Shown here piece by piece: positions 15,388 through 39,679 of a DNA stretch of 64,000 nucleotides. Source of the DNA: the human T2T-CHM13v2.0 reference genome, Homo sapiens; NCBI RefSeq assembly GCF_009914755.1, contig NC_060945.1. The stretch is one strand, 5' to 3'. How positions within the stretch are numbered: position 1 is the stretch's first letter; every line of letters starts with the position of its first letter. The position numbers were made by a program, and so were the translations under genes. A model generated the notes under the pieces. The model had not been told where the DNA came from, did not search any database, and worked only from the letters and a program-made list of their open reading frames with translations.

Positions 15388-16488
15388 AACCTTTAGCCAG
15401 ACTATGGGGAAAAAAGGGAGAAAAGTCAAATAAATAAAATTGAGATGAAAAAGAAGACATTACACTAAAACCACAGAAATTCAAAGAATCATTAGAGACT
15501 ACTATGAGAAAATGTATGCCAAAAAATTTGAAAACCTAGAAAAAAATGGATATATTCCTAGATACATACAACCTGCAAAGATTGAACCATGAAAAAATCC
15601 AAAATCTGAATAGACAAATAACAAGTAATGAGATCAAAGCTGTAATAAAGTCTCCGATCAAAGAAAAGCCCAATACCTGATGGATTCACTGCTGAATTCT
15701 ACCAAATATTTGAAAAACTAATACCAGTCTTACTCAATCTATTCCAAAAAATTCAAGGAGGAGGGAATACTTCCAAACTCCTTCTATAAGGCCAGTATTA
15801 TCCTGATACCAAAACCAGAGAAAGGCACATCAAAAAAAGAAAACTGCAAGCCAATATCTCTGATGAATATTGTTGCAAAAATTCTCAACAAAATACTAGC
15901 AAACATTTTCAACAATACATTTAAAAGATCATTCATCACGACCAGGTGAAATTTATCCCAGGGATTCAAGGATGGTTCAACAGATACAAATCAACTGATA
16001 TGATTCATCATATCAGCAGAACAAAGGACAAAAAGTATATGATCATTTAAATCGATGCTGAAAAACCATTTGATAAAATTTGACATCCCTTCATTCATGA
16101 TAAAAAAAAAAAACTTGGTATAGAAGGAACATATCTCAACATAATAAAAGTTATATAAGACAGACCCACAGCTAGTACCATACTGAATGGGGAAAAACTG
16201 AACACCTTTCCTGTAAGGTCTGGAAGACAACAAGGATGGCCACTTTCACCGCTGTTATTCAACATAGTACTGGAAGTCCTAGCTAGAGCAATCAGACAAG
16301 AGAAAAAAATAAAGGCCATCAAAATTGGAAAGAAATAAGTCAAATTATCCATGTTTGCAGATTATATGATCTTATATAGAGAAAAACCAAAAACCCTAAA
16401 GACCACAAGAAAACTGTTAGAACTGATAAACAAGTTCAGTAATGTTTCAAGATACAAAGTTCAACATACAAAAATCAGTAGCATTTCT

Positions 16489-16753
16489 TTTTTTATATTT
16501 TTTTTAAGACAGAGTCTCACTCTTGTTGTCCAGGCTGGAGTACAATGGTGCAATCTTGGCTCACTGAAACCTCTGCCTCCCAAGTCGCTGGGATTACAAG
16601 CATGTGCCACCACACCTGGCTAATTTTGTATTTTTAGTAGAGACACAGTTTCACCATGTTGGTCAGGCTGGTCTCAAACTCCTGATCTCAGGTGATCACC
16701 CCGCTGGCCTCCCAAAGTGCTGGGATTACAGGTGTGAGCCACTGCACCGGGCC
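16489..16753 (-). mobile_element. Alu (AluSp/Sq-like) with internal deletion
   Basis: 19-bp TSD aaaaatcagtagcatttct at 16470-16488 and 16754-16772. Confidence 0.95.
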
Positions 16754-18105
16754 AAAAATCAGTAGCATTTCTATATATCAACAATGAGCAATCTGAATAA
16801 GAGATAAAGAAAATATCTCATTTATAATAGCTACAAATAAAATAAAATACCTAGGAATTTACCAAAGAAGTAAGAGATCTCCACAATGAAAACTATAAAA
16901 TATTGATTGAAGAAGTTGTCTATAGTTCTTCATGACTTTTAAAAATAATAATAAATGTAGAAATTGAAGAGGACGCACAAAAAATGGAAAGATGCTCATG
17001 CTCATGGATTGGAAAATTTGATATTGTTAAAATGCACATACTACCCAAAGCTATCTACAGTTTAAATGCAGTCACTACCAAAACACCAATTCTATTCTTC
17101 ACAAGGAAAAAATAATTCTAAAATTTATATGGAGCCATAATAGAGCCTGAACAGGCGCTATCCTGAGCAAAAAGAACAAAACTAGAGAAATCATATTACC
17201 TAACTTCAAATTATACTGGAGAGCTATGGTAACCAAAAGAGCATTGTACTGCCATAAAAACAGATCCATAGGTCAAGGCAACAGAATAAGGACCCTAAAA
17301 ATAAATCTATCCATTAACAGTAAACTCATTTTTGACGAAAGTTCCAAGAACATGCATTGGGAAAGCATAGTCTCTTTAGTCTCTTTAATAAATGGTGCTG
17401 AGCAAACTGGACAGCCACATGCAGAAGCATGAAGCTAGACCTCTATTTCTCACCATATATAAAAATCAAATCAAAATGGATTAAAGACTTAAATCCAAGA
17501 CCTGAAACTTTGAATCTACTAGAAAACTTCACGAAAATCTCCAACTCATTGGTCTGAGCAAAGATTTCTTGAGTAAGGCCTCAAAAGCACAGACAACCAA
17601 AGCAAAAATAAATAAATAATAAATGATAATAGGTAAAACAAGTTAAAAAGCTTCTGCATAGCAAAGGAAACACCAACAAAATGAAGAGACAACCTGCAGA
17701 ATGGAAGGAAATATTTGCAAACTACCCACCCGACAAGCAATTAATAACTAGAATATATAAGGAGCTTAAACAACTTGATAGAAAAAAATCAAATAATCTT
17801 ATTTAAAAATGGGTGAAGAATCTAAATGGACATTTCTCAAAAGAAGACATACAAATGATCAACAGGTATTGAAAAAAAGGCCAAATATCACTAATCATCA
17901 GACAAATGCAAGTCAAACCTGCAATGAGATACCACCTTACCCCAGTTAAAATGGCTTTTATATAGGCAATAACAAATGCTGGTGAGGATGTGGAAATAGG
18001 GGAAGCCTCATACACCACTGGTGGAAGTGTAAATTAGTACAGCCACAGTGAAGAATAATCTGGAGGTTCCTTCCAAAACTGAAAAAGGAACTACCATATG
18101 AGGCA

Positions 18106-21400: not shown

Positions 21401-21843
21401 TAACATGGTAAGACCTGTATTTAAAGTTCTGGTCCAAATATATGGCAATGATTTTGATCATTACAGATGTTACTACAAACATTCAAACTGATACCTACTG
21501 AGAAGCACTCTAGGCTAAGTGGTTTGGAAATTCTGCATCCCCCAGAATGCTTCAATGCTTCTGATGAAAGCCCTGATATATGGGATTCCTGTTGTGAGAT
21601 CCTAGGTGAATAATCCTAACTGCAGGACTAATATTGGACATACTCAGAGACAGACTTCATAAGGCCACCCTCACTTTTCCACATCAGGTGGAAAGAGAAA
21701 AATGAAATTATTACCTTTCAAAATATTTGTCTGCTTGAATTATTTCACTCTTACCCTTAATAGTAACACCAACTATAATTTACTTGCTCCAGAGACAAAA
21801 TCAGGTCTTCACATATCCTTGAGGCAACTCTATGTGTTGCATG

Positions 21844-21879
21844 CACACATACACACACACACATACACACACACATACA
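21844..21879. repeat. (CA)n/(CATA)n microsatellite
   Basis: Read directly. Confidence 0.85.
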
Positions 21880-22548
21880 TTCTTTGCTCAGCCTGTTCAT
21901 TATTTTATTATCTAACCCTTTCATTATTTCATTGCTCTCCAACTTGGGGACACTTTCAAGACTGTCAAGAAGTTACTGACTTCTGAGTCTTTATTATCAA
22001 AGCAAATGAAATAAACCATGGTTTCCTGCCCCTGACACTTCACCATATGGTATTGATGCAGTGACTAGCCACAAAATGCCAGATGGCCCCAAGATATCAG
22101 TTATTCAAGAATAACATCATACCCACTCAGAATACATGTATAACTCCTCCCAAAGGGTAGTATTACTCTTAATTATAAATTCCTTTATCCAGTACTGAAG
22201 ATATATGTCCAAAGCCTAGGACATACTTGTCTAAATATTTGGACATTTAGAAAAGCAATATTAAATTCTCATCATATTGTGTTGTGTCACTGAAAATACT
22301 GGTGTTAGAACATATCCCACAGGTGTCTCGGGGGTTGGTAAATTATCTTAAGGCTCATGTGGAGAGGATATCTAGTAGAGAAACTCCCTGGAGAATAAAA
22401 GCACTTATAAATAGAAAATCTCCTTCCAAATGGAACTCATCCATGTTGTTCATCTTACATAGCTAGATCAGGAATGTATTTCTATGAAGGCACTGACTGA
22501 AAGTGGAAATCTACCAACCCGTTAATTGATTTTTATATTGAATAAAAT

Positions 22549-22991
22549 TTTTTACCATAACTATTTTTATTACAATAATTAGGAGCAGTACAGTTCATGA
22601 CAAAAATATTACAGATCTCAGATCGCTTCACAGCATGAAGTTATTTTAAATGCTTATACTCTTATAAACACTTAAAAGTTAATTTTAATTTAAGAATGGT
22701 CATTTTTAATGTTTGATATGACCAACATTCCTAATTTAGCACAACGAAATGATGGAAAACAACTGGGTCACACTGCGTGTGTCCCACCAAAGAAAAAAAA
22801 AAACAAAGCACAATGTACAAAATGTGCATGTTTCTATTGACAGTATATGAAAATAGTTAAAATACATGTTACAGGTAAACATGTAATATTAAGAAATAGT
22901 ACTAGTAAAAAGTTGGCATGCAAAAGAAAATGCAAAAAAAATTCAACATGGCAACACAAGACAGTAGAATCGAAAACTTTTGGATAAAATA
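22549..22991 (-). pseudogene. 5'-truncated processed retrocopy of the terminal KRAS 3' UTR
   Basis: The minus strand matches my recollection of the KRAS mRNA end (…gaaacatgcacattttgtacattgtgc…ggaatgttggtcatatcaaacattaaaaatgacca…tttttgtcatgaactgtact…aataaaaatagtta). AATAAA at 22571-22566; short tail; 17-bp TSD at 22532-22548 and 22992-23008. Confidence 0.85.
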
Positions 22992-25140
22992 TTTATATTG
23001 AATAAAATATTAACATAGTATATGCTACACAACTTTGCACAAACCTTCCAAAAGTGATTTTATGTCACTGAGAAGTGACCGAGAACCTTGGACAAGAATC
23101 AATATTGATTTTCCAGGAATATTCCAGGAGAAAAAAGTCTGGGTTGAAGTAATTTCCTTTGTAAGATGAACGGCAAGACCCATACGACCATATTAAAATG
23201 TTGCCACTACAATCTCAGAATTGTGATTGCCAGACACTAACATTTCTGCCAAATAATCTAAATTTTGGTTAGTTAAGCTACAGGAATTTGTACAGAAATT
23301 TTTTTTCCAAGACATGAAAATGAAGAATGCAAATGAATAAAAATGTACTGAGGTGCATTGCTGGAGGAAAATAGCCAAAGTGAAATGACCGATATAGGGT
23401 CTTTATCAATTTACAATTGTATAGCAAGTTGTAAAGTAATGCAATGTATTGTCATTGTCACCAGTTGTTGAATTATAAATTATTTTTCCCTAAAGTTCCC
23501 ACTTTCCCTTTCCTATCTATTCAGCCAATTCAGGCAAATAGTCCATTCTGAGTTATTTCCTGAGGATGCAGGTGTGACAGGGTAGAGTGCAAAAAGGAAA
23601 CTTCCTCTAAGTCTCTGATTTATATGTTTCCAAAATCTTAAAGCTAAAAGGGGTTTATTTTTAGGGGCAAAAATGAATTTGGGAGGAACCTATCAAGATG
23701 TGAACAGGAAGGGATTTCCCCAGAAGGCTAAAAGCATAGGGAATAGCAGAAGAAAAACAAATTAAGGTGGTTTAGAGACAGAACATTGACTCCACTCTCC
23801 AAATTAGAATTTCAGTGAAGGAGCAAGATACCAATTTAGTATTAAAGCCAGAGAATAAATTTGGATATTTGCCCCTCTTCTTAGATAATAAACCCCGAGA
23901 AGTGATAAAGCCCCACATTCCATATGAAGGCAAATAGGGTCATAGATAAGTCCCAGGATAAATCCTTTGCCAGAGAATAGCATGGAAGAAATGGAATGAT
24001 GCCCCAGTTTTCAAGCATAGCATGAAAGTACCAGAGTGATCCATTAGACCTGAAGTCCAAGGTAGACAAGAATGAGAATTGTCTTGACAGTTTACTGCAT
24101 GGATTGGTGAGCAAGGACCAAGTGGCACCATGGAATGGTCAGCAGATATCTGTGTGGACAGATGGCTCAAGGACAAGATGAGTCATGCAATACCTCACAC
24201 TTACATAAGTCTCCCTTGAACTTAAACACAGCCCAGGGAAAAGAGAAAGAGTTTTAGTGTCTGATATCCTAGGGAAATGGAGGATTCAAAGAAAAATTCC
24301 ATTAATACATAGAAAAATAATGTTTCTTACACACCTGGTTTAGTTTGGACTGAGATTTGTACCTGTTATGATAGAAAATATAATTACCATTTATAATCTG
24401 AATTACAGGATATGAGTTAGCTTCCACATATCTGATGCCCAGATTTTCCTAATATGAACACAGTTAAACTTTCCTACATGATATGTGGACCCAACATATC
24501 TTCCCTCACATATGTTCTGTAGCTTCATATATTTTGTTCACCGTGTGCATTTCACTTCTCTTTTATTCCTGATTCTCAGAACAACTGTTCTGTGCAAAGC
24601 ATGACAGCATAAAACCTCTCTGTCCTTCAAGGCCTGTGTTCTATTAAGTCTTTTATATGAACTATCATTTATTGTACATCAACCATACCAGGAACTTTAC
24701 AAGGACTACCTCTTCTTCACAAACATAAAAACATTCAAATTCAGCATCATAATCCCCTTTTTACAGGCAGAAAGCATGGGCTTGGAAAGGCTAAGTAACT
24801 CCCTTACTTTGGTAAGGCAGGCAAGCTTCAAAATCTTTTCTATTTCTAAACCTCCAGCCCAAGTTGATTTTTAGATGGTAACCTTTTGAATGTATTGTCC
24901 ATTCTACCCAAATGTCTCCATAATACATACTACTTAATTTTCTTTTTTTACTTTTTTAAAATCATACAACTAGGCTCTTGTCCTAGTCATTATTTGTATA
25001 TTAAATTTACCTTTTAAGCCAAATTGGAAATCATCAAAATTCACAGATGAGGCATCATTTAGGAAAAACTTTTTCTCTATTTTTAACTTTTTGCAAAATA
25101 CTATTGCTCTTCCAGAAATATTTAAGCTTGCCATGGTCTC

Positions 25141-38196: not shown

Positions 38197-39679
38197 TAAT
38201 ACACATATTTTTGATAGAATAAAGAAGTGAAGAAATGAAAGTACAGTAGCAACACATCAAATAAAACAGATACCTGGAGGCATAAATATGGCATCTTGGA
38301 GACACATTTTTTTTTGGATAGACTAAGATAAAACATTGATGCTGTTGACTTGTCTCAGCTGTAAGTCAGCCACATCTGGCCCTCATCTCTCTCTTGGCAA
38401 AATTTCTGCTAAACTTTATTAGTTTTCAACTTTTCTCTTGTTAATGACTTCAAATTTTTCTCATTATTAAATAATTTAGTATAGTGTCTGATCAAAATCC
38501 TTCTTTGAATTGTGATAGAGAAATCAAAGTGAAAAAATAAAAGTCATTTGCAAAATCACTGTGGTGACTCAGCTGTCGAAAATAATTCAAACTGGACTTT
38601 CGATATACTAACATATAGCCCCAAATAGTATCAAAATTATTATTTGACCACCGGAAGAGGCCTACTAAGTATCCCTATCCATAATAGAATTTAAGTCATT
38701 TCTTAACCAGAAAATACACAAAACAAGTCTATGTACTGAAATTGACCTGTATACTAAGTAGGAATAAGGAAATTTAGTCCTTTTGTTCAAATCTATGAAA
38801 AATTGCTTCCTTTTTGGGCGGATCTGTTCCAAAAAGTGTTTTGTTTGACTTTACCAAATCTACCATTTGTTTGAGATTTAGTCTGGATCTTTTCAAATGA
38901 AAAACATGAAAGTTTAAGAAAGCTTTGCTCAATACCACACAAAGCAAAATATTTCTTCAACATAGAATTTACTACTCAAGCATTTTTTTTCTAGTTAACT
39001 GCACAAATCAGATTTACTGGATTTTAATGAAAGTAATTATATTAAGAATTAACAACATTCTTCAAATTGTGGCTCATAAAATGTTTGCTAAATACCCCAT
39101 TTAATACTTCCATTGAAAATTTCCTATTCATTTCTTAACCAGAGTTACGGAGAAACACATTAAATTATATTAAGTTCAAGTGCCAAGTAATTAACAAAAA
39201 AAAAAATTTGTTTAGTATGTCTGTTTTATATGACCCTCAATATTTAATCATTTAAATCTCACTTCTAATTATGTCTATTAATATTATTAAACAAACTTTA
39301 GCCTGACAATAAATACAAATTCCCAAGTAAGTATTAGACCACTCTAGGGTATAATAGTATTTCTAATCTGATGTTTACCTATGTTTTGTTTTTCATCTAC
39401 AACACTGACTTTTTTTTTAAGTGGACACAGTAGTTGATTGTGAAGTATTTGAATGTCACACAAGAAATATAAATGTGGGTGCTGACCTCAAAGCACACAG
39501 AAGCTAGGGATGATAGGGTTTTCACATAGTTTAAGGCAGATTCTAATCTGAATGGTACAGCCAAAAAATAATTTTTTTAAGGGTAGAAGTCTTTGTTGAC
39601 TGAAAAATAGTTAAGCTCAAAAAAAGGGTGAAAGTCGACCTTATCTACTGAAGACAATGAGACAATGACAGGAATTCTA

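What the first reader, a model, noticed from the sequence alone, without database searches (positions are those of the whole stretch)
22532..23008. Isolated retrocopy of the last ~440 nt of the KRAS 3' UTR
Seen: a perfect 17-bp direct repeat, tttatattgaataaaat (22532-22548 and 22992-23008), flanks non-repeat DNA with a minus-strand AATAAA next to a residual tail, i.e. a retroposed mRNA end. From recall, the insert aligns along its length with the distal KRAS 3' UTR, moderately diverged. It seems to contain an extra ~20 nt (aagcatttaaaataacttca) relative to human KRAS, which may be ancestral. UTR-only retrocopies escape protein-based pseudogene annotation, can cross-map KRAS 3'-end reads and probes, and carry the parent's miRNA/RBP sites. 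With no CDS, it is apparently distinct from KRASP1.
Basis: partly seen in the sequence, partly recalled or inferred. Interest (0 to 1): 0.7.

Follow-up and report, generated by a model that had tools for sequence, protein, structure and literature searches.

The report
Old retrocopy of KRAS mRNA tail
This is a decayed copy of the last ~410 letters of the KRAS cancer-gene message, likely pasted long ago by the LINE-1 machinery into an intron of a non-coding gene on chromosome 21; it is likely functionless and is an ordinary kind of pseudogene fragment that the RefSeq gene table does not list.

Summary
Confirmed and ordinary. The 17-bp direct repeat is real (1 of 1000 simulated sequences gave one) and extends to 20 bp with one mismatch at a TTTT/AA-like nick site. 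The 438-nt insert's best hit is the extreme 3' end of KRAS (E 2.6e-115). It is a 5'-truncated processed pseudogene with 2-5 residual A's, lying sense in the last intron of LINC00158. It differs from KRAS at 46 of 405 aligned sites, with no significant clustering, and is older than KRASP1; I infer stem-primate age or earlier. The extra 20 nt is real and absent from KRAS, KRASP1 and a third copy; it is more likely an insertion in this copy than ancestral, but no outgroup genome was available. The cross-mapping claim fails for 50- and 90-nt reads (0 of 123 and 0 of 109 within 2 edits). By-product: a younger 166-bp, 98%-identical KRAS 3' retrocopy in a GPHN intron on chr14 does come within 2 edits of 25 of 109 such 90-nt reads. 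No evidence of expression or function was obtainable.

The parts
22992..23011 (-). 5' target-site duplication (17 bp perfect core 22992-23008; 20 bp with one mismatch). The + strand at its outer edge reads TATT/AA, or TTTT/AA with the base of the other copy, the L1 endonuclease consensus (established knowledge).
22554..22991 (-). 438-nt 5'-truncated copy of the last ~410 nt of the KRAS mRNA; 46 substitutions in 405 aligned sites and 7 indels
22875..22881 (-). Retained match to the miR-30 seed (seed recalled), inside the KRAS fragment that responded to miR-30c in a published reporter
22793..22807 (-). T-rich tract carrying a 12-nt expansion relative to KRAS (limits approximate)
22636..22655 (-). 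Extra 20 nt (net +19) absent from KRAS, KRASP1 and the chr14 copy; donor not identified
22566..22571 (-). AATAAA poly(A) signal inherited from the KRAS distal poly(A) site; same strand as LINC00158
   Evidence: annotation table
22549..22553 (-). Residual poly(A), 2-5 A's, merged with the duplication
22532..22551 (-). 3' target-site duplication (17 bp perfect core 22532-22548)

Best explanation
The insert is a 5'-truncated copy of the KRAS mRNA 3' end flanked by a target-site duplication, likely made by LINE-1 target-primed reverse transcription in a primate or earlier ancestor and likely decaying without function since. Shown: parent identity, duplication, tail remnant, poly(A) signal, truncation point, divergence, order relative to two younger KRAS copies. 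Inferred: L1 endonuclease nicked the + strand at a TTTT/AA-like site at 23011/23012, primed on the poly(A) tail of a KRAS mRNA ending at the distal site, and stopped after ~410 nt; the copy then gathered about 10% substitutions, lost most of its tail, expanded a T tract and gained 20 nt. Inferred age about 55-100 million years, from recalled primate neutral rates. It is transcribed, if at all, only as part of LINC00158 pre-mRNA intron (inferred from the annotation).
For: Duplication, tail and signal. Homology stops at the cleavage site and does not continue into KRAS downstream DNA, as for the other two copies. Parent identity. Transitions:transversions 33:13, K2P 0.125, no significant clustering of the 53 change events (permutation p 0.12-0.24 on 4 statistics). 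At both of 2 sites where KRAS alone differs, this copy sides with KRASP1, and the chr14 copy sides with KRAS. 44 sites are private to this copy or predate KRASP1, against 8 private to KRASP1, in 383 columns: ratio 5.5, 95% CI 2.6-13.5. Non-CpG divergence from KRAS is 9.8% (38 of 387); 12 of 13 local Alu copies lie 3.9-8.3% from their majority, 1 at 17.9%. Two of three recalled miRNA seed matches are lost. The hallmarks match those given for L1-made retrocopies in PMC5470649 (passages).
Against: The duplication is better preserved than expected for this age: P 0.03-0.065 for 17 of 17, 0.10-0.19 for at most 1 mismatch in 20, although the locus was noticed because of that repeat. It holds 4 CpGs against 1.1-2.0 expected from flank, window or parent rates (P 0.025-0.14). 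The clustering test has limited power (0.20-0.86 over three simulated models; a fourth model crashed). No outgroup genome, empty site or expression data was examined; neither flank gave a paralogous empty site.
Confidence: 0.85

Rival explanations
1. Same origin, but the copy has been put to use as an intronic poly(A) site or terminal exon of LINC00158, giving a shorter RNA that ends in KRAS-derived sequence and could bind miR-30 or stabilising proteins.
For: Sense orientation inside the last LINC00158 intron (annotation). AATAAA intact, three TGTA motifs within 45 nt upstream, U-rich DNA downstream. LINC00158 is LPS-induced and mainly nuclear in macrophages (PMC12095776 passages). The KRAS distal UTR may hold stabilising elements (PMC4914247 section 6). 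miR-30 seed match kept.
Against: AATAAA occurs 40 times on the minus strand in 1-32574. The best candidate splice acceptor in the insert has 16 pyrimidines in 22 nt, a level of 15 or more being reached by 149 of 995 YAG sites in the same intron stretch. The one annotated transcript has no exon here. Divergence looks neutral.
Confidence: 0.08
2. A young insertion of an already divergent KRAS mRNA from another species, carried in for example by a virus particle and retroposed by host L1.
For: Nearly intact duplication; 4 CpGs where KRAS has none; perfect blocks of 37, 27 and 27 nt.
Against: The tail is nearly gone, whereas the younger copies keep 8 (KRASP1) and 14 or more (chr14) A's. T-tract expansion. 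No significant clustering. Recalled miR-96 and miR-217 seed matches lost. 67 TG/CA dinucleotides in the parent segment give ample room for a few CpG gains.
Confidence: 0.03
3. DNA-level duplication of the KRAS locus or an assembly artefact rather than retroposition.
For: No intron lies in the copied part, so intron loss cannot be shown.
Against: Homology ends at the poly(A) cleavage site and is bounded by the duplication; 9.5 kb of the KRAS locus gives no other non-Alu-like match to the window. 11% divergence excludes a mis-assembled modern KRAS read.
Confidence: 0.02

Closest known systems
L1-mediated 5'-truncated processed pseudogene (retrocopy)
   Same: Target-site duplication, poly(A) remnant, intact 3' end, 5' truncation (hallmarks in PMC5470649 passages).
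   Different: UTR only, so protein-alignment pipelines miss it (PMC2584115 passage) and intron loss cannot be tested. mRNA-based pipelines such as retroFinder align whole mRNAs and could list it (section 17); their browser track was not available.
KRASP1 (chr6 processed pseudogene of KRAS)
   Same: Same parent, same distal poly(A) site, cleavage at the same base.
   Different: KRASP1 spans the whole last exon (89% over 4770 columns) and is much younger (12 of 393 mismatches in this segment against 46 of 405). Separate insertion.
chr14:61129400-61129565 KRAS 3' retrocopy in a GPHN intron (found here)
   Same: UTR-only, 5'-truncated, ends at the distal poly(A) site.
   Different: 166 bp, 3 mismatches, long tail, no duplication found, antisense to its host gene.

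Membership tests
L1-mediated processed pseudogene | Homology to a mature mRNA of a gene elsewhere in the genome | tested here: met
   chr12 hit E 2.6e-115, at the end of the KRAS4B last exon
L1-mediated processed pseudogene | Homology ends at the poly(A) cleavage site, followed by a tail remnant | tested here: met
   2-5 A's; the tail alone is too short to be diagnostic
L1-mediated processed pseudogene | Flanking target-site duplication | tested here: met
   17 of 17, 19 of 20; 1 of 1000 simulations
L1-mediated processed pseudogene | L1 endonuclease-type nick site (TTTT/AA-like) | tested here: met
   Read from the sequence at 23008-23013 and 22548-22551; one base differs between the two copies; consensus from established knowledge
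L1-mediated processed pseudogene | Loss of introns | not testable with these tools
   The copied part lies within one KRAS exon
L1-mediated processed pseudogene | Empty site in an outgroup | not testable with these tools
   No relative genomes held; flanks gave no paralogous empty site
Competing endogenous RNA pseudogene (KRASP1/PTENP1 type) | Stable transcript containing the copy | not testable with these tools
   No expression data; annotation places it in an intron only
Competing endogenous RNA pseudogene (KRASP1/PTENP1 type) | Parent's miRNA sites retained | tested here: inconclusive
   1 of 3 recalled seed matches kept; 190 of 391 7-mers kept against 307 of 391 in KRASP1
KRASP1 itself | chr6 locus with KRAS coding remnant | tested here: not met
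   KRASP1-like copy is at chr6:54.61 Mb; this copy has no coding part

The most novel reading that the evidence does not exclude
The insert is a cross-species retrocopy: a KRAS mRNA end from a non-primate vertebrate, already about 11% divergent and carrying the extra 20 nt, was reverse-transcribed into the primate germ line fairly recently, which would explain the nearly intact target-site duplication and the four CpGs.
Probability: 0.03. Interest if true: 0.9.

Novelty: new member of a known kind. Interest (0 to 1): 0.2.

Why it matters
Modestly. KRAS is usually said to have one pseudogene; the genome holds at least three copies of its 3' end of three ages, which give a small time series of a strongly constrained UTR segment. 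This chr21 copy is too divergent to confuse 50-90-nt reads, but short oligos can match it: a published 23-nt KRAS primer matches it exactly (its partner primer does not). The chr14 copy in GPHN is the one that could mis-assign KRAS 3'-end reads. If 3'-end data showed use of its poly(A) signal by LINC00158, it would be a neat case of a lncRNA end taken from an oncogene UTR.

Tried and rejected
Outgroups: no vertebrate relatives are held; exact scans for one conserved 22-nt block found 0 matches in viral contigs and 0 in prokaryote genome contigs, and two 20-22-nt motifs were in 0 papers' main text, so no non-human KRAS end was obtained. Paralogous empty site: the left flank gave 3 weak short hits about 450 bp from the insert, the right flank none. 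Donor of the extra 20 nt: exact match only here, 5 one-mismatch hits elsewhere against 1 for the reversed control; a 13-of-16 inverted match to the adjacent KRAS sequence is borderline (153 of 3000 shuffles, 102 of 3000 window 20-mers score as well) and direct look-alikes upstream score the same, so a fold-back origin is not established. APOBEC-type editing: rejected, G>A 9 and C>T 10 of 46. Known RNA family: 3 Rfam matches in 21500-24000, all on the CA repeat outside the insert and far below gathering. Further KRAS UTR copies: none beyond the 4 loci for the last 1.9 kb; the upstream 2.6 kb search was swamped by Alu hits (40 of 6835 candidates scored), so it is incomplete. Earlier scan notes were not available.

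Full report
Observation. The two 17-mers are identical at the stated coordinates. A perfect repeat of that length arose in 1 of 1000 first-order Markov simulations of the surrounding 1.5 kb. The match extends to 20 bp with one mismatch, 22532-22551 and 22992-23011. At the outer edge of the right copy the + strand reads TATT/AA, and TTTT/AA with the base held by the left copy, which is the L1 endonuclease consensus (established knowledge). On the minus strand the insert ends with AATAAA at 22571-22566, then 12 nt, then 2-5 A's that merge with the repeat.

Parent. A search of the window's own genome with 22549-22991 gave 4 matches of 4 candidates: itself, chr12:25076503-25076909 (E 2.6e-115), chr6:54615012-54615407 (E 2.5e-90) and chr14:61129407-61129565 (E 1.9e-36). 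The chr12 match lies at the end of 4551 nt that follow the stop codon of an exon whose translation matches KRAS4B residues 150-188 exactly. The chr6 match belongs to a copy that covers the whole last exon at 89%; I take it as KRASP1, which a reference in PMC6617568 places at 6p12-p11 (passages). Homology stops at the cleavage site, at the same base as in KRASP1, and does not run into KRAS downstream DNA. No other non-Alu-like part of 9.5 kb of the KRAS locus matches the window.

Divergence and age. Against KRAS there are 46 mismatches in 405 aligned sites (K2P 0.125; 33 transitions, 13 transversions), insertions of 2, 12 and 19 nt and deletions of 1, 1, 1 and 5 nt. Changes are not significantly clustered (p 0.12-0.24 on four statistics), though the test has power of only 0.20, 0.69 and 0.86 under three simulated block models (a fourth model crashed). 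KRASP1 differs at 12 of 393 sites in the same segment and at 316 of 4089 in the rest of the UTR, so the distal segment is constrained in KRAS and most of the 11% likely lies on the chr21 branch. In 383 shared columns, 44 changes are private to chr21 or predate KRASP1, 8 are private to KRASP1 and 2 to KRAS; at those 2 the chr21 copy agrees with KRASP1 and the chr14 copy with KRAS. The order is therefore chr21, KRASP1, chr14. Non-CpG divergence is 9.8%, above 12 of 13 local Alu copies measured against their majority (3.9-8.3%; one at 17.9%). With recalled primate neutral branch lengths this points to an insertion before the simian radiation, roughly 55-100 million years ago. This is an inference; no outgroup was examined.

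Results against that reading. The duplication is well kept for such an age: with base-specific rates from the alignment, P is 0.03-0.065 for 17 of 17 and 0.10-0.19 for at most one mismatch in 20. The locus was, however, picked because of the repeat. The insert holds 4 CpGs, none shared with KRAS, against 1.1-2.0 expected (P 0.025-0.14); the parent segment has 67 TG/CA dinucleotides that can yield CpG by one transition. These two points are why I leave 3% for a young insertion of a foreign KRAS mRNA. Against it are the nearly lost tail (KRASP1 keeps 8 A's, chr14 14 or more), the T-tract expansion, and the loss of two recalled seed matches.

The extra 20 nt. It is at 22636-22655 and absent from 3 of 3 other human copies, so KRAS lacked it by the time KRASP1 arose. 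It has no exact match elsewhere, and 5 one-mismatch hits against 1 for the control. A 13-of-16 inverted match to the adjacent sequence suggests a local fold-back, but only at p 0.03-0.05, and direct look-alikes upstream score as well. Because this UTR segment changes slowly in KRAS, I put an insertion in the copy at about 70% and an ancestral segment at about 30% (inference).

Cross-mapping and sites. Of simulated KRAS 3'-end reads, 0 of 123 50-mers and 0 of 109 90-mers come within 2 edits of the chr21 copy (minimum 4 and 8); 8 of 131 25-mers match exactly. KRASP1 takes 73 of 123 and 34 of 109, and chr14 takes 40 of 123 and 25 of 109. The reverse primer of the miR-30c reporter in PMC3372467 (passages) matches the chr21 copy 23 of 23, but the forward primer lies upstream of the truncation point (8 mismatches at best). 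Of three recalled seed matches in this KRAS segment, miR-30 is kept and miR-96 and miR-217 are lost. 190 of 391 distinct 7-mers survive.

Function. By the annotation the copy sits sense in the last intron of LINC00158, an LPS-induced, mainly nuclear lncRNA (PMC12095776 passages) whose promoter loops to miR-155HG (PMC6146817 passages). Its poly(A) signal could end a short isoform, and PMC4914247 (passages and section 6) suggests stabilising elements near the KRAS 3' end. But AATAAA occurs 40 times on that strand in 1-32574 and no acceptor in the insert stands out. I give this 8%.

What is known. The hallmarks are those of L1-made, 5'-truncated retrocopies (PMC5470649 passages). [quoted passage not shown] PMC6278865 mentions only KRASP1 (one passage). 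In the listings of searches I saw no title or abstract start that describes a chr21 or chr14 KRAS copy; searches were for context. I saw listings only for most papers, the library lacks most subscription papers, and retrocopy databases and unseen supplements may already list both loci.

Verdict. A real, unannotated but ordinary truncated retrocopy: new member of a known kind, interest 0.2. The more practical by-product is the chr14 copy, about 215 bp upstream of an exon that matches gephyrin residues 171-261.

Noticed in passing
L015:4901-5066 (G000:C14:61129400-61129565, minus): Second UTR-only KRAS retrocopy: 166 bp, 3 mismatches, tail of 14 or more A's, antisense in a GPHN intron about 215 bp upstream of a coding exon. 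No target-site duplication found within 60 bp or 1.5 kb; the tail abuts DNA that looks like a cut-off L1 (recalled). 25 of 109 simulated 90-nt KRAS 3' reads fall within 2 edits.
   Followed up: partly
window 38696-38711 and 39128-39143: Perfect 16-bp direct repeat around 416 bp of AT-rich DNA in another LINC00158 intron; no poly(A) seen and no other genomic match. Unexplained: chance or an old insertion of unknown source.
   Followed up: partly
window 16469-16488 and 16753-16772: 20-bp perfect repeat flanking an Alu-like element inserted in L1-like DNA (family names recalled); an ordinary duplication.
   Followed up: no
L014 (KRASP1, chr6) against L013: KRASP1 differs from KRAS by 3.6% in the last 410 nt but 7.7% in the rest of the UTR, which marks the distal segment as constrained in KRAS; KRASP1 has lost the recalled miR-30 seed match that the chr21 copy keeps.
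   Followed up: partly
window 22003-22102: Weak matches (E 1e-6 to 7e-6) to three other chromosomes, probably an old interspersed repeat fragment about 450 bp from the insert.
   Followed up: no
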